Of a stretch of 64,000 nucleotides of DNA, positions 28,428 through 63,764 are shown one piece after another (position 1 is the stretch's first letter; every line of letters begins with the position of its first letter). Location: the NCBI GenBank assembly GCA_002428565.1, contig DIXA01000026.1, forward strand, positions 5,435-69,434, in the 5' to 3' direction. Origin of the DNA: Anaerolineales bacterium UBA6092. GTDB taxonomy: Bacteria > Chloroflexota > Anaerolineae > Anaerolineales > UBA4823. The notes under the pieces were generated by a model, which saw nothing but the letters and a program-made list of their open reading frames with translations, was not told where the DNA came from and ran no database searches. The position numbers were made by a program, and so were the translations under genes.

Positions 28428-28592
28428 TACGAGCGCTACACCACCCCCCTCAGCGCCTCCTTCAACCGCCCCACCTCCTCCAACGTATTGTAATGCACCG
28501 GCCCCACGCGCACCATGCCGCCGGATTCCTCCAGCCCCAGGCGCTCGGTGACGCTGATGGCATAGTAGTTGCCGTCCCACAGGTTGATGTTC
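28428..28592 (-). pseudogene. class V aminotransferase (cysteine-desulfurase-like) 3'-end fragment, copy A
   Basis: Encodes ...NINLWDGNYYAISVTERLGLEESGGMVRVGPVHYNTLEEVGRLKEALRGVV*. DNA is near-identical to 63165-63320. No N-terminal part is present. Confidence 0.75.
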
Positions 28593-28711
28593 AAGAAATC
28601 AACGATGCCAGATGACATTACCTGTCCAACTGGCCAAGTACAAACTCTCCTTTCAACGGGGAAGTTTTTTGTTCTCACAGACTATACTGACTATTGAAAG
28701 GAACTTCTACC

Positions 28712-29653
28712 ATGAAAAAAACCATCCTGCTGTTCACCTTGTTCGTCCTGCTCACCTCGGCCTGCGATCCCATCGTATCGGTCGAGCCAACCATCGTTGC
28801 GGAGGCCACAGCCACCAACGCCGCGCCCCCCGCAACGGACATCCCCTCCCCAACCCCAGAACCAGCCACCCCCACCCCAGAGATTTTTATTTCCCTGACC
28901 CAGGCTGTTCCGGGCGAACTCCAGCCTACTCAGGCCCCTGTCGGAACAACCGCCACCTACTCTCCCCTGACCCTGACCATCCCACAGGCCATCGCCAACG
29001 GGGCCAGTGGCAGTAACATGCCTCGCCTGGATGGAGATGATGCCGCCTGGTGGGAAAAGACCCCGGGGCACCTTGAAGTTAGCCTGGCTGATTACTATGT
29101 TTTGCTGGGCAAAACCCACCAACCGGTCATCTACATTTACCCCGCTTCAGCGTACGTTGAACTCTCTTCTTCGGCCTTCGAGAGCATCCACCGTCTGAAC
29201 AACTACCTGTATGCCCCCAACAACATCCCGGCGCTTGCCGAACTACCTGGGGTACCGTTCCTCAATGCCCAAATCCAGTTCGCGGCGCAAATCCAACAGG
29301 TATCGTTCCAGAATGGCAGCGGCATTCGCTACATCACTCAGTATGATCAATACGCCGCCCCGGTCAACAACGCCGACCTATTCTACAACTACATCGGCAT
29401 CACCAATGATGGTGCGTATTATGTGGTAGCAATTTTCCCGCTCACCAATTCCCGGTTGGCCGAAACCAGCGATGCCAACGCCCCCCTGCCTTCGGGTGGC
29501 ATCCCCTACCCAGGCATGGGCTCACCCCAGAATCAAATGGAGCCTTACTACATCGCTGTGACCGAAATGCTCAATGTTCAACTGCCCGCCAGCTTTTTCC
29601 CCGGCCTCGCAGAACTGGATAGTCTCATCCAGTCCATGCAGATCAGCCAGTAA
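28712..29653 (+). CDS. putative lipoprotein, function unknown
   Basis: MKKTILLFTLFVLLTSAC (lipobox-like LTSAC), then a Pro/Thr-rich linker. GAAAGGA lies upstream of ATG 28712. Confidence 0.65.
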   Translation: MKKTILLFTLFVLLTSACDPIVSVEPTIVAEATATNAAPPATDIPSPTPEPATPTPEIFISLTQAVPGELQPTQAPVGTTATYSPLTLTIPQAIANGASGSNMPRLDGDDAAWWEKTPGHLEVSLADYYVLLGKTHQPVIYIYPASAYVELSSSAFESIHRLNNYLYAPNNIPALAELPGVPFLNAQIQFAAQIQQVSFQNGSGIRYITQYDQYAAPVNNADLFYNYIGITNDGAYYVVAIFPLTNSRLAETSDANAPLPSGGIPYPGMGSPQNQMEPYYIAVTEMLNVQLPASFFPGLAELDSLIQSMQISQ

Positions 29654-29661
29654 TTTCCTTG

Positions 29662-29696
29662 CCTGGGAGACCGTCTTTGAAAGACGGTCTCCCAGG
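29662..29696 (+). terminator. 17-bp stem hairpin
   Basis: cctgggagaccgtcttt g aaagacggtctcccagg, 9 nt after the stop at 29653. No T-run. Confidence 0.4.
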
Positions 29697-29734
29697 CCAC
29701 TTTGCAATTTCAAACCCTGATAAGGAAAACTTCG

Positions 29735-30577
29735 ATGCACACGAAACTCAAACGCTTTTTCTCTGGGGCCGCGATTGCCCTGCTGACGCTGACGATTGGT
29801 TACAGCCTGCTGCGCCCGCTGCACCTGCGCTGGGGCGCCAGTGAAGCCGACCTGCAGCGTGCCATGCCGGGCGACCTGGGCGGTTCTCGTTGGACACGCG
29901 CCATCCTGATCGAGGCCGTGCCGGAGCAAATCTGGCCTTGGCTGGTGCAGTTTGGGCAAGGACGCGGCGGATGGTACAGTTACGACTGGCTGGAAAACCT
30001 GCTGGGCTTCGACATTCACACCGCTGATCAGATATCACCCGAATACCAGAACCCGCAAATTGGCACACCGATTTGCATGTCGGGCAGTTTTTGCCCCAGC
30101 AAAGTGCATGTGATGGAACCCTACCAGTGGTTTGGCTGGCAAGCCACCGATGAAAGCGGCCAACCGGTCTGGACTTTTGTGTTCGGTTTGTTTCCCGAGG
30201 GTGCAAACCAAACACGGCTGGTGGTGCGCGAGAGTTTCGACCCGGCCTTTATGCCCCCGGCAGCGGTACTCGCCCTGGAAATCCCGGATGTGGTCATGGA
30301 ATTGAAAATGCTGGATACGCTCAAGGCTCGCGCCGAAGGCCGCTCCGCATCCGGGCTGGTCACAGCCGCCGAAATCAGCCTTTGGTTGGCAGCCCTGGTC
30401 GCCAGCCTGTGGGCTGGCTGGCTGTTTCTCACTCGCCCCGCATGGCAACGCCCACTGGCTTTTTTCGCGGCCGGGCTGGTTGTGATCCTGCTCATCACCT
30501 TCATCTTCCTGCCCTTATGGCTGCGCGGATTACTGGTCGCGCCGCTGTTTGCAGGACTCGCCTGGAGAAAGTTATGA
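29735..30577 (+). CDS. SRPBCC-superfamily-like protein with N- and C-terminal TM segments
   Basis: WGASEADLQRAMPGD...AVPEQIWPWLVQFGQGRGGWYSYDWLEN. This pattern is common in proteins annotated SRPBCC (from memory). Confidence 0.6.
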   Translation: MHTKLKRFFSGAAIALLTLTIGYSLLRPLHLRWGASEADLQRAMPGDLGGSRWTRAILIEAVPEQIWPWLVQFGQGRGGWYSYDWLENLLGFDIHTADQISPEYQNPQIGTPICMSGSFCPSKVHVMEPYQWFGWQATDESGQPVWTFVFGLFPEGANQTRLVVRESFDPAFMPPAAVLALEIPDVVMELKMLDTLKARAEGRSASGLVTAAEISLWLAALVASLWAGWLFLTRPAWQRPLAFFAAGLVVILLITFIFLPLWLRGLLVAPLFAGLAWRKL

Positions 30578-31371
30578 ATATCCCCCTGCCCAACTTCCCC
30601 GAAAGCCTGGCGGCAAAAGTCGCCAACGGACAAATCCCCCTGCGCCGCGCCTGGGTGATGCTCGTGCTGCGCTCGTCCGTTAGTTTTGCACTACTGCTGA
30701 TGGTGACAGTGATTTACCAACTCGCCGGCAGCGCCTCACCCATCGCAGACTCGGCGGCCTGGTGGCTGTGGTTTGTCACTGCCGCAAATATTGTCTGCAT
30801 TGGCCTGCTGGTTTATTTTGGTCGGCTTGAAGGCTTGCGCCTGCGCGAAATTTATTTCGCCAACCGCGCTACCTGGAAAGGCGACCTGGCCTGGTTCTTG
30901 CTGGCAGGGGTTGTTTCGGTTTTCGTCGCCATGCCGCCCGGCACGCTGCTCGCCCAGGCGTTGTGGGGCAACGCCAATTTCCCCAACGATCTACTCTTCC
31001 AGCCGCTGCCGCTATGGGCCGTTTACCCACTGTTCCTGCTCATGCCCACCACCCAGGCTCTTGCCGAACTACCCACCTATTGGGGCTATGTTGCGCCGCG
31101 CCTGCGCGCCGCCGGTATAAACCGCTGGCTGGTGATTGGCATTGTCGGTTTCTGGCTGTCCATCCAGCATATGTTCTTCTCGTTTCAATTGGATTGGCGG
31201 TACAATTTGTGGTTGGCAGTCAAATTCTTCCCTTTTGCGCTATGGACAGGCTTTCTCATGGATCGCCGCCCCACCACCCTGCCCTACCTGATGATCCTGC
31301 ACTTCCTGCTGGATGCCACTCTGCCGCTCCTGACACTAATGGTCTCGCAGGGGATGGCCATTACGCCGTAA
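30574..31371 (+). CDS. polytopic membrane protein, possibly CPBP (CAAX protease-like) family
   Basis: ATGA start/stop overlap with the upstream gene. Has 6-8 TM helices. Weak CPBP-like motifs are AELPTYWGYVAPR, SIQHMFF and ILHFLLD. Confidence 0.4.
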   Translation: MNIPLPNFPESLAAKVANGQIPLRRAWVMLVLRSSVSFALLLMVTVIYQLAGSASPIADSAAWWLWFVTAANIVCIGLLVYFGRLEGLRLREIYFANRATWKGDLAWFLLAGVVSVFVAMPPGTLLAQALWGNANFPNDLLFQPLPLWAVYPLFLLMPTTQALAELPTYWGYVAPRLRAAGINRWLVIGIVGFWLSIQHMFFSFQLDWRYNLWLAVKFFPFALWTGFLMDRRPTTLPYLMILHFLLDATLPLLTLMVSQGMAITP

Positions 31372-31487
31372 TCTCGTGCTGATGACATACACCGGCAACC
31401 TGTCCACTTGAACAGCCCAAGACTCCCTCAGCGGCGGGGGCGCTTTGGTTTCGTTGCTGTATAATCAACCCATCAGGAGCAACAAAC

Positions 31488-32054
31488 ATGTCCGCACAAC
31501 AAGAAATTCACACCCTGCTGCAAACCTTCCAAAGCGGTTACACTCGCCGAGACTTGAGCCAGGTGGATGCTTTCATGGCATTGTTCACCCCCGAAGCCGA
31601 AGTCATTGGCACCAACGGCGTCAAACCGGGTGCGGGCGAGTGGTATCAGAACCGCGCCGCCGCCCGCGAACTGGTTCATGGCGACTGGGAAGGCTGGGGC
31701 GATTTCTGCCTCAACCTGGATTCTGCCTCCATACATGTTATCGGTGAGGTCGGTTGGGTGGCCGCTACCGCCACCGTCACCCAGACCATTGGCGAAGAGA
31801 ACTACGCGTCGTATTTGAACTTCGTCAAGGAGTATCTCGACCAGCCCGGCATCAGCGCGGAGCAAAAACTGCATTCCATCTTGCGTGGCGGGACGAACAC
31901 GGTTTACGAACTGCGGCGCGGCGAAAAATTTATCTGGCCGCTGCGTTTCACCGCCGTCGTGGTGTACACGCCCGAGGGCTGGAAATTCGCCCAGATGAAC
32001 TTCTCCTTCCCCACCATCTACTTTCCTGATGTGCGCATCATTGAAGAGGTTTGA
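31488..32054 (+). CDS. NTF2-like (SnoaL/DUF4440-like) protein
   Basis: IHTLLQTFQSGYTRRDLSQVDAFMALFTPEAEVIGT...ASIHVIGEVGWVAATATV. Confidence 0.6.
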   Translation: MSAQQEIHTLLQTFQSGYTRRDLSQVDAFMALFTPEAEVIGTNGVKPGAGEWYQNRAAARELVHGDWEGWGDFCLNLDSASIHVIGEVGWVAATATVTQTIGEENYASYLNFVKEYLDQPGISAEQKLHSILRGGTNTVYELRRGEKFIWPLRFTAVVVYTPEGWKFAQMNFSFPTIYFPDVRIIEEV

Positions 32055-32211
32055 TCGCTGTGCTGAATACACGCTTGATCCTGGTTGAAGGGTCTCCCGC
32101 TTCCGGCAAAACCACCACCGCCGGAAAATTGGCCGAAAATATCGCCCGCGCCGGGCTGGACTGCCGGCGCTTATCGAACTGCCAGCACAACTGGACTGAC
32201 CTGCCCACTTG
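32050..32211 (+). pseudogene. truncated P-loop kinase-like ORF (53 aa)
   Basis: VLNTRLILVEGSPASGKTTTAGKLAENIARAGLDCRRL... It has a Walker A but stops after about 50 residues. Below the ORF-track threshold. Confidence 0.3.
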
Positions 32212-32220
32212 ACCAGGGCA

Positions 32221-32249
32221 AACCTCCCCCACCGACGGGGGAGGTTTTG
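32221..32249 (+). terminator. Rho-independent-like terminator
   Basis: aacctccccc accgac gggggaggtt ttgg. Confidence 0.5.
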
Positions 32250-32258
32250 GTTACCGCG

Positions 32259-33203
32259 ATGTATGATTTAGTTATGAAACTCATCCTGCGCAAATATCGC
32301 ACCGAGTCCGATGGCGAAAAAATCCGCCAGTTCCTGCGCGAAGTCTTCCTGGCGAACGACCGCCGCGAAATCAGTTGGCCGCTTTACCGCTGGGATTACT
32401 GGCGTTGGCACGTCAACGAGAATATCTTCAAATTTGATCTTTCGGCTGCGATTTTCCTGTGGGAAACGCCAGATGGCCGCCTGGCCGCTGTGCTTAACCC
32501 CGATGGGCCAGGTGAAGCCTTTTTGCAGGTGCATCCTGAATTTCACACCCCAGAACTCGAAGTGGAAATGCTTTCAACAGCAGAAACACAATTCGCGACC
32601 ACCCAGGCGGAGGGACGCCAACGCCTGGTGGTTTGGGCGCACGAGAACGACCTGCTGCGGCAAGATGTGCTGAAGCGGCGCGGTTACGCAAAGAGTCAGT
32701 GGCTTCCCGAACACCAGCGCCGCCGAGCGATGAGCCAGCCCATCCCCGAAATCCCCACGCCTGATGGTTACATCCTGCGCACCCTGGGCGGTGTGGACGA
32801 GCATCCTGCGCGCAGTTGGGTCTCGTGGAAAGCCTTCCATCCAGACGAACCAGACGAGAAATATGAGGGCTGGGACTGGTACGCCAACGTCCAGCGCGCC
32901 CCGCTCTACCGCCGCGACCTGGATCTGGTGGCTGCCGCCCCCAACGGTGAGTTTGCCGCCTTTGGCACGCTCTGGTTCGACGAGGTCACCCGCGCCGCCG
33001 CCTTTGAGCCGGTTGGCACGCACCCCAACCACCAGCGCAAGGGGTTGGGCAAAGCCCTTATGGCAGAGGGGCTGCGCCGTGTGCGCGATCTGGGGGCGAC
33101 ACTCTGCACGGTTGTTTCCTATTCCCAGGCCGCCGGGGCGCTCTACGCTTCACTCGGTTTTACTAAATATGACTTATCCGAACCCTGGGTCAAAGAGTGG
33201 TAA
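32259..33203 (+). CDS. GNAT family N-acetyltransferase
   Basis: HPNHQRKGLGKALMAEGLRRVRDLGATLCTVVSYSQAAGALYASLGF (acetyl-CoA binding motif A). The upstream ORF extension is Pro-rich and non-coding in appearance. Confidence 0.75.
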   Translation: MYDLVMKLILRKYRTESDGEKIRQFLREVFLANDRREISWPLYRWDYWRWHVNENIFKFDLSAAIFLWETPDGRLAAVLNPDGPGEAFLQVHPEFHTPELEVEMLSTAETQFATTQAEGRQRLVVWAHENDLLRQDVLKRRGYAKSQWLPEHQRRRAMSQPIPEIPTPDGYILRTLGGVDEHPARSWVSWKAFHPDEPDEKYEGWDWYANVQRAPLYRRDLDLVAAAPNGEFAAFGTLWFDEVTRAAAFEPVGTHPNHQRKGLGKALMAEGLRRVRDLGATLCTVVSYSQAAGALYASLGFTKYDLSEPWVKEW

Positions 33204-33225
33204 GATTAGAACCTTGAGGCCCACC

Positions 33226-36200
33226 ATGCGCCGGACCCTATCCCTGATTGTTCTCAGCCTGCTGTTTTTCGCCACCTTCTACCCCGCTGCCGCCCAAAGC
33301 GCTGGCCCCACCTTCGCCCCCGGCGCCCACCTGCGTTTTGAACACATCACCATTGATGATGGTCTCTCGCAAAACGCCGGGCTGGCTCTGCTGCAAGACC
33401 GCCAGGGTTACCTGTGGATTGGCACACAAGACGGCCTGAACCGCTACAACGGCTATACCCTCACTCAGTTCAAACACGATCCCGACAACCCCACCAGCCT
33501 CAGCCACAGCAGCATCATCGCTCTCTACGAGGACCGCGCTGGCTTCTTGTGGATTGGCACCTGGGGCGGCGGCCTGAACCGCTACGATCCTGCCAGCGGA
33601 CAATTCACCCGCTACACCCCCGACCCCGCCAGCATCAGCCACCCCATCGTTACCGATATTGTCCAGGATGGGCAGGGCGTGTACTGGGTTGCCACGCTCG
33701 GCGGACTGGAACGCTTCGACCCGACCACCAACGTGTTCACCCATTTCCGCCACAGCCCTGATAATATCACCAGCCTGAGCAGCGACGTCATCTCGGTCCT
33801 GCTGCCTGCCCCCGGCGGCAAATTATGGGTCGGTACGGGCGCCTTCAGCGCCCCCGGCGCGGGGCTGAACCTGTTCGACCCAACCACCGGTAACGCTCAG
33901 CGCCTTGCCCAAACCGGCGACTGCCTGGCCTCTGCGAACATCGCCGATCTCCTGCCCGCCCCGGACGGCGGCCTGTGGATCGCCTACGGCGGCTACGGTG
34001 TTGCCGGCGGCGGCATCGATCACTACAACCCCCAAACCGGCGCCTGTTCCCACTTCGACAACGCGCAGGCCTTCGGCAACCAGATTGCCGACAACAACTT
34101 CACCGACCTGGCCTTTGACCGCGACGGCGCGCTCTGGATGGCCGGTTGGTCGGGTGGTTTGTGGCGTATGGCCCCCGATGGACAGTTCACCGGCATCCAC
34201 CACAACCCTGCCGACCCCGAAAGCCTGTCCAGCGACAACACCTTCACCGTGCTGCCCGACCGCTCCGGCGTCATCTGGATTGGCACGCTCAGCGCGGGGA
34301 TCAACAAACTCAACCTCGACACCCTGCAATTTCGCACCTACCGCCACGACGCATCGAACCCCAAAAGCCTGCCCAGCAACCATGTCAGCGCCTTTGCCGA
34401 AACCAGCGATGGCATGATCTGGCTGGGGAGCATCGAAAACGGCCTGGTGCGCTTCGACCCGGCCAGCGGCGAATTCAGCGCCTACCGTTCTGACCCGGCC
34501 AACCCGGCCAGTATTTCCGGCGACATGGTGCTGACCATCTACGCGGACTCCGGCGATACACTCTGGGTAGGCACCCTCGGCAGCGGACTGAACCACTTTG
34601 ACCCACGCACCCAAACTTTCACCCGTTACCAGAACGACCCCGCCGACCCCCAGAGTCTGCTCGAAAACCAGGTAACGAACCTGATCCGCGACCGGGCCGG
34701 GCGGCTGTGGGTGGGCACTTTTGCTGGTCTCTCGCGCCTCGATCCCGGCGCGACGGGTTTTATCAACTACCCCATGCCCGCGCCGCCCGTCTCTTTTGGC
34801 CTGGTGGGGGATGAACTGTGGGCGGGAACCTGGGGCGGCGGCATCTACCGCCTTGACCTTGTCGACCCTGCCAGCCTGGACCCTGCCACAGCGGTATTTT
34901 CCTCCCTTAAAAACGACCCTGCTAACCCCAACTCGCTCAGCAATGACGGCGTCTGGACAATTCTGCAAACCCCGGATGGCATGGTTTGGCTGGGCACCCA
35001 GGCCGGGCTCAATCGCTACGACCCCCAAACCGGTCAGTTCAAAATCTATACCGAGAAAACCGGCCTGCCCAACACCTCCATCATGGGTATTTTGCGCGAT
35101 GCGCAGGGCTTCCTCTGGCTAACCACCAATCATGGCGTGGCGCGCTTCGACCCGCAGGCCGAGACCTTCCAGGTCTACGAGAAAAGCGACGGCTTGCAGG
35201 GCAACGAGTTCAACTCCAATGCCTACTTCCAGGCCAGGAATGGCAATTTTTACGTTGGCGGCGTGAATGGGTTCAGTATTTTTGATCCGCTCAACCTGCG
35301 CCAGAACGAACTCCCGCCTCCGGTGGTGATTACCGATTTCTCGGTTTTCAACACGCCCCAGCCCTTCAACCCGACTGAATCCATCCGCCTGAACTACGAC
35401 CAAAACTTTATCTCGTTTGAGTTCGCCGCCCTCGATTTCCACGACCCACACCGCAATCAGTACGCCTACAAGCTGGAAGGTTTCGACAAAGATTGGGTGC
35501 AGGCCGGCACGCGCAACTACGTCAGCTACACCAACCTGCCCGGCGGCGACTACACCTTCCGCGTGCGCGCCGCCAACAGCGATGGAATCTGGAATGAAAG
35601 CGGGGCCACTCTCAATCTGACGGTCACGCCCCCCCTCTGGCAAACCAGGCCTTTTCAGTTGGGCCTGCTCTTGGGCGTGGTCGCCCTCGTCACCGTGGCA
35701 TTCCAGTGGCGGGTGCGGGCGGTGCGCCAGCAAAATGCCCATCTGCAAAAAATGGTGGGTGAGCAGCGGCGGGTTGAGGCCGAGTTGCGCCAATCCGAAG
35801 CGCGTTTCAAAGCCATGTTTGATAATGCCGCTGTCGGCGTGACGCTCATGTCACTTGACCGGCGCATCGTCCAAATCAACCCAAAAGTAACTGAAATCAC
35901 TGGTTATTCTGCTGAGGAAATGTACACCATCAACCCATCGGATATGGTACTGGAGCCCGATCGCTATCTCGATCGCGATTTGTTCCTGGAATTGGCGGCT
36001 GGCAAACGTGACCAATACCTGATGGAAAAGCGTTATGTTCGTAAAGATGGCTCCATTTTCTGGGGAAGGGTTAACTTTGCGCTGGTGCGCGGCGAAAATG
36101 AACAGCCGCTCTACATCGTCGGCATTATCGAGGATATTACAGATGAGAAAGAATCCGCCCGCATCCTGGCCGAATCGGAGGAGCGATTCCGCACCCTTTA

Positions 36201-37347: not shown

Positions 37348-37388
37348 CAGCCTGCCGCACTTTGTAGAGACAATATTGGAGAACGATT

Positions 37389-38018
37389 ATGGATAACAAA
37401 ATCCGCATCATGCTCGTAGATGATCATGCCGTCGTACGCTCAGGCCTGGGCGCGTTCCTGAGCGTCAACCCCGATTTGGAACTGGTGGGCGAGGCCGAAA
37501 ACGGGGAGCAAGCCGTTGTGCGCGCCGGGATTCTTCAGCCGGATGTCATTCTGATGGATTTGATGATGCCGGTGATGGACGGGGTGGCTGCCACCGCCGC
37601 CATTAAAAAGCAGCATCCGGGCATCCAAATTATTGCCTTGACCAGTTTTCAGGAAGATGAACTGGTGCAGAACGTGCTCAAAGCCGGAGCAATTGGCTAC
37701 TTGATGAAGAATGTCAGCGCCCGCGAACTTTCGGCAGCTATCAAAGCCGCCCGGGAGGGCAAGATGACGCTTTCTCCTGAAGCGGCTCAAGCGCTGGTCC
37801 ATGCCAGCCAGCAAGCCCAGGAAACCGAAACCCTGACCGAGCGCGAGCGTGATGTGCTGAAGCTGATGGTGGAGGGATTAAATAACGCTGAGATTGCCGA
37901 GCGGCTGGTGGTCAGTCTGTCTACCGTGAAATACCATATCAGTAACATATTAATGAAGCTGGGCGTGGATAACCGCGTGGCAGCCGTGACAACGGCCATC
38001 CAAAAACGCTTAGTCTGA
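37389..38018 (+). CDS. NarL/LuxR family response regulator
   Basis: REC domain (IRIMLVDDH...DVILMDLMMP...ALTS) plus LuxR HTH (LTERERDVLKLMVEGLNNAEIAERLVVSLSTVKYHISNILMKLG). Confidence 0.9.
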   Translation: MDNKIRIMLVDDHAVVRSGLGAFLSVNPDLELVGEAENGEQAVVRAGILQPDVILMDLMMPVMDGVAATAAIKKQHPGIQIIALTSFQEDELVQNVLKAGAIGYLMKNVSARELSAAIKAAREGKMTLSPEAAQALVHASQQAQETETLTERERDVLKLMVEGLNNAEIAERLVVSLSTVKYHISNILMKLGVDNRVAAVTTAIQKRLV

Positions 38019-38040
38019 ACATTCCTGTTAAATCCTATTC

Positions 38041-38085
38041 AACCATAACACACCCCGAAAATGAGATTCGGGGTGTGTTATGGTT
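38041..38085 (+). terminator. 19-bp perfect-stem hairpin
   Basis: aaccataacacaccccgaa / aatgaga / ttcggggtgtgttatggtt. Confidence 0.45.
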
Positions 38086-38321
38086 AAAAACGCCCCCACC
38101 CCCGGCCCCGCCCCCCAGGCGGCGGGGAGAAAGCGCAAAAATGGGTTCCGTGAGGGGGATGGGAGAAATGGATTAAAGCACACGCCTCGCCCCAGCAGGT
38201 GCGATTGCTCCAGTTTTCATTCGAACCTATCCTTTCAGCCAGTGCAATACTCCCCTGATGGTTGGGGCGGGCAAAGGGCAGGCGGCGTAAACTAAGAGCA
38301 GAAAGAGAGGAAATTTCAGCC

Positions 38322-38885
38322 ATGTTTGAGATCCATTCCACCTTTTCCTTTTGCGGTTACAATGGTCATCCCGTTCCTGTTGTTTCTCGTCACGCTCAAT
38401 TGTTTGATCAGGCCATCAGCCTGTTCAACAAGGCGCGGCGTAACAGCATATTCGTACGCATCCGGGCGGCCTTGCTGCGCCGGACCACAGCACTGCTCGA
38501 CCTCTCCATCTTGCCGCAGAATCGCGTGCTTAACCAATGCTACGGCGGCACTAAGACCGTCAATCTCGACCAGATCATCGGCACACTGGGGCGCGTGGGT
38601 GATTTCGATAACCATTTTTACCCGCTCTCTCTACGCACCCAGAGCCGCTGGATCAGTGTGGCGATGGCGCGCAGCCTGTGCCTTCCGCTGGAACCGGTCA
38701 AATTGATACAAGTGGGTGAACACTACTTTGTAGAAGATGGGCACCATCGTATTTCGGTTGCCCGGACGCGCGGCGAAACCGCTATCGATGCAGAAATCAT
38801 CATTTGGAAAGTGAGCGGCTCACTCCCGTGGGAAACTCGGCCCGCTTCCGATGCTCACCCTGTATTAGAACACCTGTCCATCTGA
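38322..38885 (+). CDS. ParB/sulfiredoxin-like domain protein
   Basis: IQVGEHYFVEDGHHRISVARTRGETAIDAEI (DGHHR-type motif). Confidence 0.55.
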   Translation: MFEIHSTFSFCGYNGHPVPVVSRHAQLFDQAISLFNKARRNSIFVRIRAALLRRTTALLDLSILPQNRVLNQCYGGTKTVNLDQIIGTLGRVGDFDNHFYPLSLRTQSRWISVAMARSLCLPLEPVKLIQVGEHYFVEDGHHRISVARTRGETAIDAEIIIWKVSGSLPWETRPASDAHPVLEHLSI

Positions 38886-38894
38886 CCAGTCTCT

Positions 38895-58601: not shown

Positions 58602-58622
58602 CTTATCCTCCGAATGATGGTT

Positions 58623-58841
58623 TTACTTCAATCCCGGGCGTTTTTCCCCGGACGGATTGTCTCGCTGGCTTTGATTTTGAATGTATTCCAATAATTCCGC
58701 GGCATCCAGGATGGCCACGGTTTGCCCGTTAAGCACATCCTGGATCTGGCCGCGCCACTCGGTGCCGCCCGGCCTTTCTTGCCACACCCGTAAGATAAAA
58801 ACCCTGCGCTCTGGCGTCACTTGAGTCAATGAACCGGTCAA
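58623..58841 (-). CDS. small conserved hypothetical protein sp2 (FILRVW...WRG motif)
   Basis: TTG at 58841 lies 5 nt after GGAGG. Reads LTGSLTQVTPERRVFILRVWQERPGGTEWRGQIQDVLNGQTVAILDAAELLEYIQNQ... It is 21 nt upstream of the giant gene. The 251-aa tracked ORF upstream of this point overlaps reg2 out of frame. Confidence 0.6.
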   Translation of the reverse strand: MTGSLTQVTPERRVFILRVWQERPGGTEWRGQIQDVLNGQTVAILDAAELLEYIQNQSQRDNPSGEKRPGLK

Positions 58842-58882
58842 ATTGGCCTCCAATAAACAAAAACTGGTACCGTATCGATACC

Positions 58883-58914
58883 AGTTTAGCAAATGGCTGT
58901 CTTTGGATTGTCTC
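58883..58914 (-). promoter_or_regulatory. SARP-box-like promoter of the sp2 / giant-gene operon
   Basis: Minus strand reads GAGACAA-tcca-AAGACAG-ccatttgc-TAAACT, between the reg2 stop (58945) and the sp2 start. Confidence 0.45.
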
Positions 58915-58944
58915 AGAATGGCCTGCGCCGGGCGAACCCGCGGC

Positions 58945-61900
58945 TCAACTGCTGCCTCGTGTTTTGGTGGCCTGGCCGGCCGCCCTGAGCGCTGCCAGGT
59001 CGCGTTTGACCGTTGCCTGGCTGCTGGCGGTCGCATTTGCCAGGTCTGCAATGGTTGGCGCTGCGCCTTGCGCCTCTGCCTCCTGCAGAAGGCGCTGCAG
59101 GCAGTGCTGGCGGCGTGCGGCTGCTCCGGCGATCTCCTCATCTTCTGGGTCGGACACCGTCCACGTGACTTGCACCCACTCATCCTCCCGCAAGGCGCGG
59201 CCACCGGGCGCCGTGCGGCCTGGCAGGCGCAAGGTGATCTGGCGGGGGCCCTGTGCTGCCCAGGCCGCCAGGATTTCCTTGTGCAGTGGGATGCCCTGGC
59301 GGATATTGTCGCGGCAATCTTCATCCGGAGCAACGCGCAGGCGCTCCTGGATGAGATCGACAGACTTTTTGAACGCATGGCGGGCTGCTTGCGCTTCTCC
59401 AGCCGCGCACATGATCTGGTAATGGTAGAAGCATACCTCCAGCACCGATTCGCCCAGCCCCTCTATGGCGGCCTTGGAGAGTTGCATAGCTTCCGTCAAA
59501 TCCCCTTGCTTGAGGTGGCCGACGGCTGCGAACGATTCCATCAGGTGGATATAATCGGGCCAGCCTGCCTCGCCGTACATTTCTTTAGCCTTTTCGAACT
59601 GCGCCAGCGCCGCGGGCAGGTCTGCTCTGGCTAAGTCTAATTGTCCTTGCCGGTAAGCCAGGTTTGCGTACAGCGCCGGGTATTTGAGCTGCTCGGCGAT
59701 GGCCGCCGCCTGCTGGAGATGCTCCTGGGCCTGGTCGAATTTCTTCCCCCAGGTCAGCAGCTCAGCATAGCTCAGGTGCATGCGGGCGGCTTCATCGGCA
59801 AAGCTCATTGCTCCAGCCACTGCCAACCCATCTTTGAGCACGCCTTCCGCCTGGGCAAAGCGCCCGGTTTCCTTGTAACGCGAGCTCAGGTTGAGCAGTT
59901 GGATGGTTTGCCCACGCTTATGCTCCAGATTGCAAAAAACGCTCAGCGCCTTTTCGGAAGCCTGGATGGCACGCTCATAATCAGCCAGAGCGCTGTGGGC
60001 CAGGCTGAGGTTGTTCAGCGCCACCCCCTCGTAATAGAGATAGCCGATGGTATGCATTTGTTCGTACATCGCCTGGCAGTGTTCAGCTTCTTCCTGGTGT
60101 TTTCCCTGGCTGCGGCTGATCCAGGCCAGGGCGTTGTGCGCCATTGCCAGATTCAAGATATCGCCGTCTTGGCGAGATAGCTCAAGCGCCTCTTCGGCAT
60201 TTGCCCTGGCTTTGTCCATATTCCCCAGGTCACGGTAGACGAACACCAGGCGCAGCAGGATATCGACAATGACCTGCCTCTCGCAGCCCGTCTCGCGGTA
60301 CAACGCCAACGCTTTGAGCAGCGCTGTTTCGGCGGCCAGGTTTTGCATTTGTTCTTTGCGGATCAGGCCAGTTCGCCACCAGGCTTCTGCCTCGAAGCAC
60401 GCCAATCGGTGTGCTTGTGCCAGGGAAACAGCTTTCTGGGCCGCCTCATGCCCCGCCTCATCCTGGCTGGCGATCTCGAACAAATAAGCGGCTTGTTGGA
60501 GCAGGGCTTTTGCCTGATATTCTGGCTTGCCCAGCCAGTCGGCGAGCTTCAGCATTGCCGCCACAGCCTGAGCGCAACCATCGGGCTCGCCGCGCATCTT
60601 CAGACAGGGATAGCTGGCTGCCCAGGTATCGAAGATCAAAGCCTGGTTTTGCGCTTCGTCGAAGGGTTGCTGCTGCTCGAGGATTTGCCTGGCCTGGCGA
60701 TAGGCGCTCAATGCCGCCTCTGCCAGGTACTGCCCGGCTGCTTTTTCCCCTTGCGCCATGAGCGCCTGCACCGCTCGATCCCACACCTCGCCTCGCACCA
60801 GGTGATGCGCCAGCAAGTCGACCCGCTCTGGATCGCGTGTTTCGAGCGCTGCCCCCGCCTGGCGATGCAACCTGACGCGTTCGTTGGGGTCAAGGTTGTC
60901 ATAAACCACCTGGCGGATCTTATCGTGGCTGAAGCAGTATGCCTGTGCTGTCTCTTGCAAGAAGTGCCGTTGCCTCAGTTCTTGGATGGATTTCAACACC
61001 GCAGGGCTTTCCAGGCCGCTGCTGCTGTTCAGCAAAGCCAAATCGAAATCGCTGCCCAGCACCGCGGCGCTGTTCAACACAGCCCTCAGAGGGGGTATTA
61101 GCCGCGCCAGGCGGCGCTTGATCACCTGCTCAACTGCTGGCGGAACCGGCAGCTCGGCATAGTCATCGGTCAATTCATCCCAGGGTGTGCTCCACTGCCC
61201 GCTTTCATTGCAGTTCAGCAAGCCTTCATCGTAGAGCACTTGCAGGGTTTCCAACACGAACAAGGGGTTGCCCTCGGTCTCTTGGTAAAGCCGTGCTTCG
61301 AAGAGCGGCGCAGCCTGTTTCGTTCCCAAAGAGCTACGGATCAGTTCGCCGGTAGCCCGCTGGTTCAGCCTCTCCAGCTTCATTCGCCCGCGCAGGCCAG
61401 CTCGATCGATGGCTTGCAGCTTCTCCCACAGCGCCGGATAACTGCGCGCCTCTTCGCTGCGCTGCGTGCCGATGACCACCACCGCCAGATCTTCAAGCCG
61501 GCGCGGCAGTGCCGCCAGCAAGTCCAGGGTCTGGCTGTCGGCCCATTGCAGATCTTCCAGGATGAGGGCGCATGGGCTGATCTGCGCCCAGCCCCGCAAC
61601 GCCTGTACAAACGCCTCGACCAGGCGGATTTGCTCCTGCTCGGACTTCAATGCCGGTGCGGGCGGCAGGTCTGGTTTTAAGGCCGCCAGTTCGAGGATGA
61701 ACGGTTTCAAAACTTGCATCCAGATGGGCTCGATCACCTGCGCCAGTTGGTTCATTCGTAAGGGCGTCAAGCTGCTGCCCAGAGCTTGGGCCAGCGGCCC
61801 GTAAGGTGGGGTGATCTCCATTGGGCTGGCGCTTCCCCAGAGCACCTGTGCGCCGCGCCATTCCAGGTCACGCGCCACCTCTTGCACCAGGCGCGTTTTT

Positions 61901-62817
61901 CCTACCCCAGCTTCCCCCTCCACCAGGATCACCCCACCCAGATCATCAAAAATGCCCTCAACTGAGGCGAGCAGCTCGCTGCGCTCGCTGGCGCGCCCCA
62001 CCAGGCTGAGCAGCCTGGTGCGCTCGCTGCTGATGGCTGGCCGCGTGGGCTGCAAAGTCTGCGGCAGGTAGGGGGCCGCTTCTGGCGTGTTGCTGCGGGT
62101 GATTTCATTGGCCAGGGCCTGGATTTCTGGCCCCGGTGTGGTACCCAGTTCGTTTTGCAAGATCTGCCGACAGGTTTCATATTGTCGCCGCGCCGCCTCG
62201 GGACGGTCAAGGATGAAATAAAGCCGCATCACCTCGCAGTGGACGGCCTCCCGCAACGGGTCGGCCCCCACCAGCGCCAGCGCCAGATCCAGAGCCTGGT
62301 GGTAGCGCCCGGCTGCTTTTTCCAGCACCAATAAGCTCTCAAGCGCGCTGAAGTAGTTTTCTCGCAGCCGTTCGCGTTCTTGCAACGCCCAATCTTCGTA
62401 AAAACCCTCCATCAAGTCACCCTTGTAGAGTTGGACAGCCCGCCAGAGCGCCTCGCGCCGCTCTGGGGCTGGTCTTTCTGCTGCCAGGCCGGCTGCCAGC
62501 CCTGCGCGGAAGACTTCTACATCAATACATAGCAGAAGGTTATTTGCAATATAAATGCTCTCAGCCTCTGTCTCGATCCATCCGGGCAGGCTCTGGCGCA
62601 GTTGCCACAGGGCCTGCGTCAGATAGCGGCGGGCGCGTGGCTCCGGATAATCCGGCCACAGTACCCCCACCAGCACTGCGCGCGGCTGCGGCTGTTCTCG
62701 GTGTAGCAAGAGATAGGCTAACAAAGCCCGGGCGTTTGCCGTTGGCGGCAGTGACAGCGATTCGTCCCCCTCCCAAAGCCTCATATTACCGAATAATGTG
62801 GCGCGCAGGTTCAACAT
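58945..62817 (-). CDS. SARP/BTAD - AAA ATPase - TPR regulator with an extra C-terminal DeoR-like HTH, reg2
   Basis: ARALLAYLLLHREQPQPRAVLVGVLWPD...YKGDLMEGFYEDWALQERERL. Walker A is LVEGEAGVGKTRL. Long TPR region. C-terminus is TIADLANATASSQATVKRDLAALRAAG. Confidence 0.85.
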   Translation of the reverse strand: MLNLRATLFGNMRLWEGDESLSLPPTANARALLAYLLLHREQPQPRAVLVGVLWPDYPEPRARRYLTQALWQLRQSLPGWIETEAESIYIANNLLLCIDVEVFRAGLAAGLAAERPAPERREALWRAVQLYKGDLMEGFYEDWALQERERLRENYFSALESLLVLEKAAGRYHQALDLALALVGADPLREAVHCEVMRLYFILDRPEAARRQYETCRQILQNELGTTPGPEIQALANEITRSNTPEAAPYLPQTLQPTRPAISSERTRLLSLVGRASERSELLASVEGIFDDLGGVILVEGEAGVGKTRLVQEVARDLEWRGAQVLWGSASPMEITPPYGPLAQALGSSLTPLRMNQLAQVIEPIWMQVLKPFILELAALKPDLPPAPALKSEQEQIRLVEAFVQALRGWAQISPCALILEDLQWADSQTLDLLAALPRRLEDLAVVVIGTQRSEEARSYPALWEKLQAIDRAGLRGRMKLERLNQRATGELIRSSLGTKQAAPLFEARLYQETEGNPLFVLETLQVLYDEGLLNCNESGQWSTPWDELTDDYAELPVPPAVEQVIKRRLARLIPPLRAVLNSAAVLGSDFDLALLNSSSGLESPAVLKSIQELRQRHFLQETAQAYCFSHDKIRQVVYDNLDPNERVRLHRQAGAALETRDPERVDLLAHHLVRGEVWDRAVQALMAQGEKAAGQYLAEAALSAYRQARQILEQQQPFDEAQNQALIFDTWAASYPCLKMRGEPDGCAQAVAAMLKLADWLGKPEYQAKALLQQAAYLFEIASQDEAGHEAAQKAVSLAQAHRLACFEAEAWWRTGLIRKEQMQNLAAETALLKALALYRETGCERQVIVDILLRLVFVYRDLGNMDKARANAEEALELSRQDGDILNLAMAHNALAWISRSQGKHQEEAEHCQAMYEQMHTIGYLYYEGVALNNLSLAHSALADYERAIQASEKALSVFCNLEHKRGQTIQLLNLSSRYKETGRFAQAEGVLKDGLAVAGAMSFADEAARMHLSYAELLTWGKKFDQAQEHLQQAAAIAEQLKYPALYANLAYRQGQLDLARADLPAALAQFEKAKEMYGEAGWPDYIHLMESFAAVGHLKQGDLTEAMQLSKAAIEGLGESVLEVCFYHYQIMCAAGEAQAARHAFKKSVDLIQERLRVAPDEDCRDNIRQGIPLHKEILAAWAAQGPRQITLRLPGRTAPGGRALREDEWVQVTWTVSDPEDEEIAGAAARRQHCLQRLLQEAEAQGAAPTIADLANATASSQATVKRDLAALRAAGQATKTRGSS

Positions 62818-63164
62818 TCTTGGTCGCTCCCTACCCCAGCACCATCCTTGGACGGTACCGCAAGGCCTCCGCCAGGTGACCGGGGCCCATCAGAACACAC
62901 CAGACATACCACTTTTGGGCGGATCACTTTACAGAAATGAGTTTACACTAACTTCTCTGCAAACGCCATCGCTTTTCCCGTCTTAAGTGTAAGGATACCA
63001 CTTCATGGAAGAATAGTTGGAAAGGCTCATCGCCCAAGCCAGAATCACCTGGCGCAAATCACCCAAGAATCGGTCACCGCCAAACAAATCGCTGCTAACA
63101 GCCCGGCAACCTTGTCAGATGAACTTGGATATCCCGTCCCTACCTCACCACCCTCATGCAGACG

Positions 63165-63764
63165 CTACACCAACCCCCTCAGCGCCTCCTTCAACCGCCC
63201 CACCTCCTCCAGCGTATTGTAATGCACCGGACCCACGCGCACCATGCCGCCGCTCTCCTCCAACCCCAACCCCTCGGTGACGCTGATGGCATAATAGTTG
63301 CCGTCCCACAGGTTGATATTCTGCTCGGCCATTTTTTCGGCCACCTGGCGGGGATGCCAGCCCTTTAGCGTGAAGGCGAAGGTGGGTACGCGCTCTTCCA
63401 GGCGGCGCGGGTCGTCCAGCCCGTACAGGCGCAGGCCGGGCACATCGCCCAGCGCGGCCAGCACGGCGCGGCTGATCTCGAACTCGTAGGCGCGCACGGC
63501 TGCCAACGCCTGCTTGAGGTGCAGCCTGCGCCCGCTGAAGCGCTCGGCATACTTCTCCTGGTAGGTCTGCCCAAAGGTCTGCCCCAACCAATCGAAGTAC
63601 TCCACCGCGCCCAGCACACCCGCCAGGCCTTCGTGATTCTGCGTGCCGGTCTCGAAGCGGCCCGGCAGGGCGTCCGGCGCGGGGCGCACTTTGTAGGCGA
63701 AGAGCTCGTTGAGGAGGTCATAGCGGCCGTAGAGGATGCCGCAATGAGGGCCAAAAATTTTGTG
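63165..63764 (-). pseudogene. class V aminotransferase (cysteine-desulfurase-like) 3' half, copy D (longest, 5'-truncated)
   Basis: HKIFGPHCGILYGRYDLLNELFAYKVRPAPDALPGRFETGTQNHEGLAGVLGAVEYF...NINLWDGNYYAISVTEGLGLEESGGMVRVGPVHYNTLEEVGRLKEALRGLV*. Homology ends at the HK codons, 9 nt from the stop of the neighbouring ABC gene. No N-terminal half is present. Confidence 0.7.

What the first reader, a model, noticed from the sequence alone, without database searches (positions are those of the whole stretch)
28428..63764. Four same-orientation partial copies of the 3' end of a cysteine-desulfurase-like gene partition 35 kb into blocks
The copies are A (28428-28592), B (40437-40658), C (45521-45751) and D (63165-63764). 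All lie on the minus strand and in intergenic positions, and they are near-identical where they overlap.
- D is the longest, at about 600 bp. It starts abruptly at the HK(F/I)FGPH codons.
- B starts at the same breakpoint but has an internal deletion and a truncated 3' end.
- A and C keep only the last ~165 and ~230 bp, plus about 15 nt beyond the stop codon.
No copy has the N-terminal half, so none can encode an enzyme. The copies delimit three functionally distinct blocks: 28.6-40.4 kb (mixed sensory and accessory genes), 40.7-45.5 kb (K+ module) and 45.8-63.1 kb (surface proteins plus reg2). This is the pattern expected from serial site-specific integration into the 3' end of a gene, with attL/attR-like duplications, or from repeated recombination at a ~0.6-kb repeat. 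However, I see no integrase, transposase or other mobility gene.
Basis: partly seen in the sequence, partly recalled or inferred. Interest (0 to 1): 0.65.

Follow-up and report, generated by a model that had tools for sequence, protein, structure and literature searches.

The report
Gene-tail repeats marking swapped-in gene cassettes
An Anaerolineales bacterium keeps at least seven displaced back halves of one enzyme gene strung over about 67 kb, each marking a block of accessory genes inserted at that gene; the layout recurs across this class, never with an integrase nearby, so it looks like an undescribed gene-capture hotspot.

Summary
The four minus-strand copies exist at the stated coordinates. 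They are 87-95% identical to each other, not near-identical.

**What the array is**
- The window is part of a 109.9-kb metagenome contig from an Anaerolineales bacterium.
- The intact 419-aa parent gene is a TIGR01976-type cysteine-desulfurase-like gene. It lies about 30 kb beyond the window end, in the same orientation.
- At least seven fragments follow it over about 67 kb.

**Recurrence and properties**
- Extra 3' fragments occur in 10 of 78 genome loci and 19 of 70 metagenome loci.
- About half of the 55 fragments start at the codon of the PLP-binding lysine.
- Most of these are preceded by a conserved non-coding leader.
- Full-length fragments are open, with dN/dS of 0.04-0.19, so they are former working halves of the gene.
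- The copies are mosaics.
- Two different species share a 5.75-kb multi-cassette block at 99.8% identity. It ends exactly at the leader/lysine-codon junction.

**Recombinase search**
- No recurrent integrase or transposase family was found in or near any array.

**Reading**
- Cassettes carrying a replacement 3' half insert serially at the lysine codon, and homologous recombination then reshuffles them.
- Whether the joining step needs a site-specific recombinase acting in trans is unresolved. I put that at about 0.5, against about 0.3-0.35 for homologous recombination alone.

The parts
63165..63764 (-). Fragment D: a complete, open 3' half (residues ~219-419 plus stop) of the cysteine-desulfurase-like gene. 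It has no leader and starts 9 nt after the stop of the upstream ABC-ATPase ORF.
   Evidence: No in-frame stop; dN/dS 0.13 against the intact copy.
45527..45750 (-). Fragment C: a truncated copy (residues 347-414 plus stop and ~10 nt).
45751..45821 (-). Sequence 5' of fragment C. A leader-like core (…CAATATCATTGTGTCGT) abuts the truncated copy directly, preceded by a 19-bp-stem hairpin (45780-45821) of bidirectional-terminator type.
   Evidence: Hairpin -40.8 kcal/mol, z = -6.5.
40432..40658 (-). Fragment B. The 5' piece is 40499-40658 (residues 219-~272) and the 3' piece is 40432-40518 (residues ~360-388). It has an internal deletion and has lost its 3' end.
40659..40750 (-). Leader of fragment B. 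This non-coding element ends at the lysine-codon junction. The motif match GGTTTGTGTAATGTGTCTTACAACAC at 40655-40680 runs 4 nt into fragment B, and there is a small terminator-like hairpin plus T-run at 40680-40696. The same leader precedes the two off-window fragments E and F.
28438..28592 (-). Fragment A: the most distal copy and the shortest in the window (residues 369-414 plus stop and ~10 nt).
28593..40431 (+). Cassette block between A and B. It contains three unannotated membrane or lipoprotein-like ORFs, a SnoaL-like protein, a GNAT, a large Reg_prop/PAS histidine kinase with a LuxR-type response regulator, a 207-aa ORF and a beta-lactamase-fold protein. The genes are on the opposite strand to the fragments.
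40751..45526 (-). Cassette block between B and C: an OmpR-type response regulator, a KdpD-like (DUF4118-GAF-HisKA) kinase, a 661-aa APC-family permease and a 123-aa ORF.
45822..63164 (-). Cassette block between C and D: two beta-helix proteins, a BNR protein, a 2,555-aa FG-GAP repeat protein and a 1,290-aa BTAD-AAA-TPR regulator.
63765..64000 (-). End of the next cassette (PadR, two MacB/FtsX permeases, an ABC ATPase). It continues off the window to fragment E.

Best explanation
The four copies are the window's share of a longer array on one contig. The intact TIGR01976-type cysteine-desulfurase-like gene sits at window-equivalent ~94.5-95.7 kb. Seven promoterless 3' fragments follow it on the same strand, with blocks of accessory genes between them.

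**Proposed mechanism**
- New DNA enters at the codon of the PLP-binding lysine (Tyr219/Lys220 of the S-x-Y-K-F-F-G-P-H motif) in the expressed gene.
- The incoming piece supplies a working replacement 3' half, then its cargo, then a non-coding leader.
- The previous 3' half is pushed downstream and silenced, now preceded by that leader.
- Repetition builds the array. Homologous recombination between the ~0.6-kb copies then deletes, exchanges and, in other genomes, inverts cassettes and makes the copies mosaic.
- The cassettes encode no recombinase. I infer that joining at the lysine codon is done by a site-specific recombinase encoded elsewhere in the genome, as an integron integrase serves cassettes that lack one.

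**Shown:** the array and its parent gene; recurrence of the same junction; purifying selection on the fragments; recombination among the copies; cassette-wise differences and recent transfer between species; no recurrent integrase or transposase family in the arrays.

**Inferred:** the direction of growth (newest cassette next to the intact gene), the circular or incoming intermediate, and the trans-acting recombinase.
For: **Parent gene and extra copies**
- Both are on the same contig and strand.
- The window is identical to that contig over the 15,056 bp it shares with locus L002.

**Recurrence**
- An intact gene followed by same-strand 3' fragments appears in L035, L037, L040, L045+L066, L070, L090, L139, L143, L165 and others.
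- 10 of 78 genome loci and 19 of 70 metagenome loci carry extra fragments.
- 27 of 55 fragments start at residues 206-224.

**Junction and leader**
- The junction falls at the same codon in several sequence lineages of the gene, each with a related leader.
- The leader is more conserved than four-fold degenerate sites of the adjoining coding half: 74% against 38%, and 87% against 60%.
- Leader and coding half also have separate histories. Fragment E and the L004 fragment are 85% identical at four-fold sites but have unrelated leaders apart from the last ~25 nt.

**The fragments were recently functional**
- dN/dS is 0.04-0.19 with dS 0.27-1.8.
- 21 of 23 full-length fragments have no in-frame stop, and the K-F-F-G-P-H motif next to the junction is no more often damaged than motifs further in.

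**Cassette mobility**
- L037 and L045+L066 come from different species: 76% identity in the core flank and 81% in the intact gene.
- They share 5,750 nt of cassettes with 11 mismatches and one gap.
- In one genome the block follows the intact gene. In the other it follows a fragment, with two extra cassettes in between.
- The block ends exactly at the leader/codon-219 junction, and the neighbouring 3' halves are only 75-78% identical.

**No self-encoded recombinase**
- Pfam on about 50 window ORFs.
- Pfam on 20 ORFs of other arrays.
- Pfam on 83 cluster representatives from 44 loci.
- Precomputed Pfam annotation of L084, L002 and L165.
- A tyrosine-recombinase motif scan over all loci.
Against: - **No recombinase, circular intermediate or empty site was observed.** The public runs holding this organism are kept only as contigs, which break at the repeats.
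- **Homologous recombination inside the 3' half is demonstrated.** The contig's own copies are mosaic (p<1e-4). One pair of intact genes switches from ~93-100% to ~70% identity about 170-210 nt 3' of the lysine codon. Homologous recombination could therefore account for insertion as well.
- **The shared block fits the simple model imperfectly.** Its left edge lies in the last ~25 nt of the upstream 3' half, not at that copy's lysine codon. The 3' half that the model links to the cargo is not shared, which needs an extra homologous-recombination step.
- **The leader may be a decayed relic.** Its last ~25 nt resemble the gene's own codons ~210-218, so the common junction could reflect one ancient truncated copy rather than a recombination core.
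- **Coverage gaps.** The Pfam screen of 83 representatives shows only the 25 commonest families, so a single integrase could have been missed. A 3.9-kb stretch of the contig (window-equivalent 72818-76744) was not sampled.
- **One apparent polymorphism is weak evidence.** The L129/L130 difference at the junction rests on a short contig that starts 52 nt upstream and may be chimeric.
Confidence: 0.55

Rival explanations
1. Homologous recombination alone. An ancient truncated copy (leader plus 3' half) arose once. Since then the 0.6-kb copies have served as portable homology. RecA excises circles between direct copies, inserts them Campbell-style into the resident gene of the same or another cell, and swaps cassettes by double crossover. 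No dedicated recombinase exists.
For: - The repeat is far longer than a site-specific system needs.
- The copies are mosaic.
- A breakpoint lies inside the 3' half of one pair of intact genes.
- Cassette left edges fall in the conserved 3'-terminal stretch.
- Truncated copies have heterogeneous ends.
- Reversed N-terminal stubs would allow the divergent arrangements by recombination.
- No recurrent recombinase family was found in or near the arrays.
- The end of the leader looks like decayed gene sequence.
Against: - A 99.8%-identical block stops at the junction to within 2 nt, next to copies that are only 75% identical.
- Leader and coding half have separate histories across the junction, and the non-coding leader is conserved well beyond synonymous sites.
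- Fragment D has no leader yet begins at the same codon.
- The motif right at the junction shows no relaxed selection, although recombination-only crossovers should rarely carry it into the expressed gene.
- Copies within one genome are as divergent as copies between genomes (73-89%), a poor substrate for RecA.
Confidence: 0.3
2. Ordinary integrase-carrying islands (prophage, ICE or tycheposon-like elements) integrated in tandem, and every integrase has since been lost.
For: - The architecture matches known cases.
- e14 sits between icd and the icdC C-terminal pseudogene.
- Tandem elements and degraded remnants with partial tRNAs occur in Prochlorococcus islands.
- There are eleven ssrA repeats downstream of ssrA in Dehalococcoides strain VS.
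Against: - In those systems, integrases or their fragments are found in the elements nearest the target.
- Here I saw none in about 29 array-bearing loci, including cassettes adjacent to the intact gene and cassettes transferred recently at 99.8% identity.
- No phage or conjugation genes were found, and no viral contig carries the module.
Confidence: 0.08
3. A programmed switching system. The silent 3' halves are kept as a reservoir so that the enzyme's C-terminal half can be exchanged, in the manner of silent-cassette gene conversion or a shufflon. The cargo genes are incidental.
For: - The fragments are open and evolved under purifying selection.
- The copies are mosaic.
- In other genomes a reversed fragment lies ~150-220 bp upstream of the intact gene. 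This forms inverted repeats around the promoter and N-terminal half, as in invertible switches.
Against: - A, B, C and many other copies are truncated or internally deleted, so they are not maintained in place.
- Several reversed copies are frameshifted.
- The protein is a cytoplasmic PLP enzyme in a conserved neighbourhood with radical-SAM and MobA-like genes, with no evident reason to vary.
- Low dN/dS is equally expected if each copy was simply the working half until it was displaced.
Confidence: 0.05
4. Assembly artefact, or a dispersed repeat family unrelated to block boundaries.
For: Short-read contigs of the source run do break at the copies.
Against: - Two independent JGI assemblies give the same order.
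- The copies differ by 5-13%, so they are resolvable.
- They are coding-derived with dN/dS ~0.1.
- The same layout occurs on contigs of 250-680 kb whose names suggest long-read assembly.
Confidence: 0.02

Closest known systems
e14 / phage 21 integration into icd of E. coli (icd … prophage … icdC pseudogene)
   Same: - The target is a protein-coding housekeeping gene.
- The inserted DNA carries a substitute 3' end, so the gene stays intact.
- The displaced original 3' end remains as a C-terminal pseudogene at the far end.
- Recombination between the two ends gives a chimeric but functional gene (PMC13626634, which cites Hill et al. 1989).
   Different: - By my recollection of Hill et al. 1989, e14 replaces only about 50 codons; I did not check this here. 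This system replaces about 200 codons, starting at the catalytic lysine.
- e14 is a single prophage with site-specific excision. Here there are at least seven successive copies, cargo-only cassettes, no integrase and no phage genes.
Tycheposon-built genomic islands of Prochlorococcus
   Same: - Repeated integration at one site, with new elements pushing older ones further in.
- The islands are littered with partial copies of the target and with degraded elements.
- The cargo is niche-adaptive (bioRxiv 10.1101/2020.12.28.424599).
   Different: - Tycheposons target seven tRNA genes and carry a tyrosine recombinase (474 of 501) and often replication genes.
- Here the target is an enzyme gene, no tRNA is present, and no cassette carries a recombinase.
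ssrA-specific genomic islands in Dehalococcoides (same phylum, Chloroflexota)
   Same: Tandem islands lie downstream of a single-copy essential gene, with up to 11 direct repeats of its 3' end interspersed among accessory genes (PMC2764846).
   Different: The repeats there are 19-20 bp of a tmRNA gene, and a recombinase-containing gene cluster sits next to ssrA. Here the repeats are up to 600 bp of coding sequence and no recombinase is nearby.
Integrons
   Same: - Cassettes lack their own recombinase.
- In the proposed model, insertion occurs at one fixed site at the head of the array, giving a one-directional array.
- Each cassette ends in a conserved non-coding element.
- Toxin-antitoxin cassettes are present.
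   Different: - No intI-like gene lies next to the insertion site.
- No attC-type R''/L''-L'/R' site was recognised by eye.
- Cassettes are multi-gene, carry their own regulators and lie on either strand.
- The repeat between cassettes is half a protein-coding gene.

Membership tests
Integrative element that replaces the 3' end of its target gene (e14/phage 21-icd type) | Direct repeats of the target gene's 3' part flank the inserted DNA, with an intact gene at one end | tested here: met
   The intact 419-aa gene and at least seven same-strand 3' fragments are on one contig.
Integrative element that replaces the 3' end of its target gene (e14/phage 21-icd type) | The element encodes its own integrase next to an attachment site | tested here: not met
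   No integrase, resolvase or transposase domain in window ORFs, in the L084/L002 annotation or in other arrays. Caveats: a 3.9-kb gap, and singleton families are not visible.
Integrative element that replaces the 3' end of its target gene (e14/phage 21-icd type) | Excision and integration through a circular intermediate | not testable with these tools
   Only assembled contigs of the source runs are available, and they break at the repeats.
Tycheposon / tRNA-targeting island | Target is a tRNA or tmRNA gene, with partial tRNA copies as attachment scars | tested here: not met
   ARAGORN finds no tRNA or tmRNA in the window or in seven array loci. There are no Rfam matches in the window.
Tycheposon / tRNA-targeting island | Arrays from successive integrations at one site, with degraded remnants | tested here: met
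   Full-length and truncated copies alternate with cassettes.
Integron | An integron-integrase gene adjacent to the insertion site (attI) | tested here: not met
   The genes upstream of the intact gene are rubrerythrin and an M3 peptidase here, and radical-SAM and MobA-like genes in other lineages.
Integron | attC sites (imperfect palindromes with RYYYAAC … GTTRRRY cores) at cassette ends | tested here: inconclusive
   I saw no GTTRRRY core at the junction by eye. The leaders hold only short hairpins with energies no better than shuffled sequence. No attC covariance model was available.
Silent-cassette gene-conversion / shufflon-type variation systems | Promoterless partial copies recombine with one expression site, giving mosaics | tested here: met
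   The copies lack the N-terminal half and are mosaic.
Silent-cassette gene-conversion / shufflon-type variation systems | The silent copies are maintained, and the varied product is under diversifying pressure (surface or specificity protein) | tested here: not met
   Many copies are truncated or deleted. dN/dS is 0.04-0.19, which is purifying rather than diversifying selection. The product is a PLP enzyme.
Class-V aminotransferase, TIGR01976 cysteine-desulfurase-like (identity of the repeated gene) | Full-length Aminotran_5 fold with the PLP-lysine motif | tested here: met
   Met for the parent gene only: L084:1648-2907 is 419 aa with Aminotran_5, and source annotations name relatives TIGR01976. 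The window copies carry only the part from the lysine onward.

The most novel reading that the evidence does not exclude
Anaerolineae possess an undescribed gene-capture platform. Multi-gene cassettes lack any recombinase of their own. A trans-acting site-specific recombinase inserts them at a single codon, that of the catalytic lysine, in a conserved PLP-enzyme gene. Each cassette brings a functional replacement for the back half of the enzyme, which is kept in working order by selection, and a conserved non-coding leader that serves as its recombination arm. In function this would be an integron analogue, built on half a housekeeping gene instead of attI/attC.
Probability: 0.35. Interest if true: 0.85.

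Novelty: new variant of a known kind. Interest (0 to 1): 0.68.

Why it matters
Anaerolineae are abundant in digesters, sediments and hydrocarbon-degrading consortia, yet little is known about how they exchange genes.

This locus looks like a dedicated docking site. Sensory systems, transporters, surface proteins and toxin-antitoxin pairs accumulate there, and at least one block was exchanged between species very recently.

If a trans-acting recombinase exists, the system would be a new cassette-capture mechanism with a simple, portable target: one conserved codon context plus a leader of about 60-90 nt. If homologous recombination alone suffices, it shows how a duplicated half-gene can become a self-perpetuating hotspot for island assembly.

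Either way, the fragments give a practical marker for finding accessory-gene islands in Chloroflexota MAGs. They also explain why assemblies break there.

Tried and rejected
**Searches that came back negative**
- Rfam over the whole window: no match.
- tRNA and tmRNA scans: none.
- IMG/VR scans with fragment D and with a profile of eleven 3' halves: one irrelevant 45% hit. No phage-borne copy was found.
- Search for orphan leaders without a 3' half: none. Every leader motif abuts a fragment.
- Literature search for a described cysteine-desulfurase integration site in Chloroflexi: nothing relevant.

**Attempts that did not work**
- Laying public runs on the window to see excision or circle joints failed. 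Only Logan contigs are held, they end at the repeats, and the 'goes back' joints are repeat mapping.
- I tried to fill the 3.9-kb gap by searching the FtsX permease. The exact protein was not returned (best hit 88%), so the contig could not be re-fetched.
- Two apparent 'fragments' on long contigs (P0057, P0109) proved to be full genes split into two overlapping ORFs, probably by a frameshift, and were dropped.

**Ideas tested and set aside**
- Synteny of the genes beyond fragment A, or upstream of the intact gene, in relatives: nothing conserved within 10 kb, so no empty site could be defined.
- A stable leader structure: only the hairpin before fragment C is significant. The other leaders fold no better than shuffled sequence. 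No sigma-70 consensus promoter was called.
- A systematic breakpoint at the lysine codon in intact genes: not seen. The one clearly discordant pair breaks inside the 3' half.
- Further pairs sharing cassettes with edges at the junction: none beyond L037 with L045/L066, and L129 with L130.

Full report
**1. The observation**

An alignment of the four stretches and a repeat search confirm four minus-strand copies at the stated places.

- **D (63165-63764)** is the longest copy. It begins CAC AAA ATT TTT GGC CCT CAT (H-K-I-F-G-P-H), 9 nt after the TAA of an ABC-ATPase ORF.
- D's translation matches only profile positions 270-371 of 371 of Pfam Aminotran_5.
- Against a 420-aa full-length relative, the copies cover these residues:
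  - D: 215-414
  - B: 219-282 and 360-399
  - C: 347-414
  - A: 369-414
- Homology ends 2-10 nt after the stop codon.
- The copies are 87-95% identical, not near-identical.
- About 50 window ORFs show no integrase, resolvase or transposase domain.

**2. The array is larger than the window, and the parent gene is at its head**

The window is identical over the shared 15,056 bp to locus L002 of JGI contig TOLCLC_10005968 (109,872 bp). That contig comes from a hydrocarbon metagenome, and a second independent assembly carries the same DNA.

The closest genome hit is an Anaerolineales MAG.

Reading on beyond coordinate 64000, in window-equivalent coordinates:

| Feature | Position | Locus coordinates |
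|---|---|---|
| Fragment E, full length | ~67.6-68.2 kb | L002:4619-5212 |
| Unsampled gap | 72.8-76.7 kb | none |
| Fragment F, full length (= P0001) | ~86.7-87.3 kb | L084:10016-10621 |
| Short fragment f1 (residues 330-414) | ~91.5-91.8 kb | L084:5572-5841 |
| Intact 419-aa gene | ~94.5-95.7 kb | L084:1648-2907 |

- The full order is: intact gene, f1, F, gap, E, D, C, B, A. All are on one strand and span ~67 kb.
- The three most distal copies (C, B, A) are all damaged. Of the four proximal copies, three are complete.
- The blocks between copies encode accessory functions:
  - a GH99-like enzyme, a RelE/HTH toxin-antitoxin pair and a cadherin/FG-GAP protein
  - a MalT/LuxR-type regulator, an MFS transporter, an ABC-2 transporter and CAAX-protease-like proteins
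  - an FtsX/ABC transporter and an MFS transporter
  - PadR with MacB-type transporters
  - the window's own surface-protein, K+-type and sensory blocks
- GC content differs between and within blocks, from 0.51 to 0.65.

**3. The layout recurs across Anaerolineae, with a common junction**

- A protein search with D returned many C-terminal-only ORFs of ~190-240 aa from Anaerolineales and Chloroflexi.
- I mapped a full-length protein onto 79 genome loci and 80 metagenome loci.
  - Most loci have a single intact gene.
  - After merging redundant loci, 10 of 78 genome loci and 19 of 70 metagenome loci carry extra 3' fragments.
  - These usually lie downstream of the intact gene and on the same strand.
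  - One 680-kb contig has about nine fragments in 21 kb.
- Of 55 fragments, 27 begin at residues 206-224. This is the Tyr219/Lys220 codons of the PLP-lysine motif. The rest begin at scattered points between residues 243 and 399.
- Fragments of the lysine-codon type are usually preceded by a non-coding leader:
  - a small terminator-like hairpin with a T-run
  - a ~25-nt core (YTTGTGNATTG…) at a fixed distance from the junction
- In one large lineage the leader continues into the reverse complement of a TATAAT box, an AAGGAG ribosome-binding site, an ATG and the first 40-67 codons of the same gene.
- In several genomes a reversed fragment sits 150-220 bp upstream of an intact gene. This is the same junction seen from the other side.
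- Fragment D has no leader but starts at the same codon.

**4. The fragments are former working halves, and they recombine**

- Among the intact 3' half and fragments F, E and D, dN/dS is 0.12-0.19 with dS 0.27-0.37.
- Among copies of the other lineage, dN/dS is 0.04-0.11 with dS up to 1.8.
- 21 of 23 full-length fragments have no in-frame stop. The K-F-F-G-P-H motif at the junction is no more often damaged than motifs further in.
- The sequences therefore diverged while being translated. The truncated copies (A, B, C, f1) show that they are not maintained once silent.
- Copies within one genome are as different from each other (73-89%) as from copies in other genomes. They therefore stem from different lineages.
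- The four long copies on this contig are mosaics. All three possible 2:2 groupings occur, and they are clustered along the sequence (25 informative sites, permutation p<1e-4).
- One pair of intact genes is ~93-100% identical up to about 170-210 nt past the lysine codon and ~70% after it. Both contigs are short, so a chimeric assembly is possible.

**5. Cassettes behave as units and have moved recently**

Contigs L037 and L045+L066 belong to two MAGs from the same sample. They are 76% identical in the upstream core gene and 81% in the intact gene.

They nevertheless share a block of several cassettes at 99.8% identity: 11 mismatches and one gap in 5,750 nt. The block holds a 339-aa protein, a PIN/RHH pair, an aldo-keto reductase and a sigma factor with its partner. 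An IS insertion interrupts it in L037.

- In L037 the block directly follows the intact gene.
- In the other genome it follows a fragment, with two more cassettes between that fragment and the intact gene.
- Its right edge is the leader/codon-219 junction, to within 2 nt.
- Its left edge is 24 nt before the stop codon of the upstream copy.
- The flanking 3' halves are 75-78% identical.

A second case is the aldo-keto-reductase cassette of L139. It matches L037 at 92.5% from about 75 nt before the stop of the upstream copy.

Leader and coding half also have separate histories:

| Pair | Leader identity | Four-fold-site identity in the 3' half |
|---|---|---|
| E and L005 | 74% | 38% |
| E and L004 | unrelated except the last ~25 nt | 85% |

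**6. No recombinase was found in cis**

- Pfam on 20 ORFs from five other arrays found cargo only.
- Pfam on 83 cluster representatives from 44 array loci found no recombinase family with two or more members. Singletons below the 25 families listed were not visible.
- Precomputed Pfam annotation of three further contexts shows none.
- A box-II tyrosine-recombinase motif scan over all loci found none.
- The only mobility-related hits were a weak sub-threshold DUF772 transposase-domain hit (E = 0.0073) on the 453-aa ORF of the L037 insertion, and IS110-type genes beside an unrelated split gene.
- No viral contig carries the module.

**7. Mechanism**

The data fit serial insertion at the lysine codon of the expressed gene. 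The incoming DNA would carry a replacement 3' half, cargo and a leader. Each insertion displaces the previous half, and homologous recombination among the copies follows.

Homologous recombination is directly shown. It explains three things:
- cassette loss
- cassette left edges falling in the conserved 3'-terminal stretch
- the inverted arrangements, through the reversed N-terminal stubs

The joining step itself is not resolved.

For a site-specific recombinase acting in trans:
- the same junction occurs in several lineages
- the leader is conserved beyond synonymous sites
- leader and coding half are uncoupled
- the shared block ends exactly at the junction
- D has the junction without a leader
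- selection is intact right at the junction

For homologous recombination alone:
- the repeat is long
- no recombinase was found
- breakpoints occur inside the copy
- the leader's last ~25 nt resemble decayed codons 210-218 of the gene itself, so the common junction may be inherited from one old truncated copy

I put the site-specific-in-trans version at about 0.5 and recombination alone at about 0.3-0.35.

**8. Comparison with known systems**

- **e14/phage 21 at icd:** the closest single-element analogue. The prophage supplies a substitute 3' end and leaves the icdC pseudogene, and recombination yields a functional chimera.
- **Tycheposon islands and Dehalococcoides ssrA islands:** the closest array analogues.
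- **Integrons:** share recombinase-less cassettes and, in the proposed model, a fixed entry point.

This system differs from all of these in four ways:
- it targets the catalytic-lysine codon of an enzyme gene
- it duplicates half the gene (~600 bp)
- it lacks any integrase in cis across many genomes
- it carries a conserved leader

I rate it a new variant of a known kind.

**9. Limits**

- No whole genome of the source organism was available.
- 3.9 kb of the contig is unsampled.
- There are no raw reads.
- The L129/L130 and L104/L102 comparisons rest on short contigs.
- The recombinase screen is domain-based.

Noticed in passing
window 15729-15823 and 16866-16960: Two copies (89% match) of a ~95-nt element flank an ECF sigma-factor gene. 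The element is itself a long palindrome (GGTGTGGGTGTTTGGCGGGGC…GCCCCGCCAAACACCCACC). It looks like a REP/MITE-type intergenic hairpin rather than an invertible-segment boundary.
   Followed up: partly
window 50934-58601: A 2,555-aa FG-GAP repeat protein with 25 Pfam FG-GAP matches. Its DNA has about 20 copies of an ~81-nt core spaced 189-216 nt apart, at 60-88% identity.
   Followed up: partly
window 3688-7188 and 58945-62817: Two large BTAD-AAA_16-TPR (SARP/AfsR-like) regulators lie in one window. The second is inside the C-D cassette, next to the giant surface protein.
   Followed up: no
window 17052-23753: A cluster of a DUF3344 protein, a sortase, a 983-aa peptidase C25 and an ice-binding-like protein. 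This is a likely sortase-dependent surface module outside the fragment array.
   Followed up: no
L002:23-2071 (window-equivalent ~70.7-72.8 kb): The FtsX-type permease of the cassette beyond fragment E has relatives at 83-88% identity in MAGs labelled Chloroploca, Planctomycetes and Anaerolineae, and at 78% in one labelled Spirochaetia. This suggests widely exchanged cargo.
   Followed up: partly
L045:~14470 and L111:~2090: Two unrelated fragments carry a similar ~14-nt insertion (CCTCAAAACCGGTGGTT / CCACAAAACTGGTGGTC) immediately before the TACAA of the V-H-Y-N-T codons. A 10-nt insert also precedes the TACAA of the Tyr-Lys codons at the main junction. Unexplained.
   Followed up: partly
L100:~2324 and L161:~1015: In two fragments the first codons after the junction read N-Q-C-G-P-H and N-H-C-E-P-H instead of K-F-F-G-P-H. 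This is a small local replacement right at the junction.
   Followed up: no
L037:3841-5705: A 1.9-kb insertion interrupts the 99.8% shared cassette block in one genome only. It holds a 151-aa ORF and a 453-aa ORF with a weak DUF772 transposase hit, so it looks like a recent IS insertion.
   Followed up: partly
L122:461-1064: A reversed gene copy has residues 1-32 joined directly to residues 211-417, so most of the N-terminal half is deleted. It lies divergent to a normal lysine-codon fragment.
   Followed up: no
L005, L040, L045, L070, L127, L165 (upstream of the intact gene): A radical-SAM protein and a MobA-like nucleotidyltransferase are recurrent neighbours of the intact gene. This hints that the enzyme works in cofactor (possibly molybdenum-cofactor) metabolism.
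   Followed up: no
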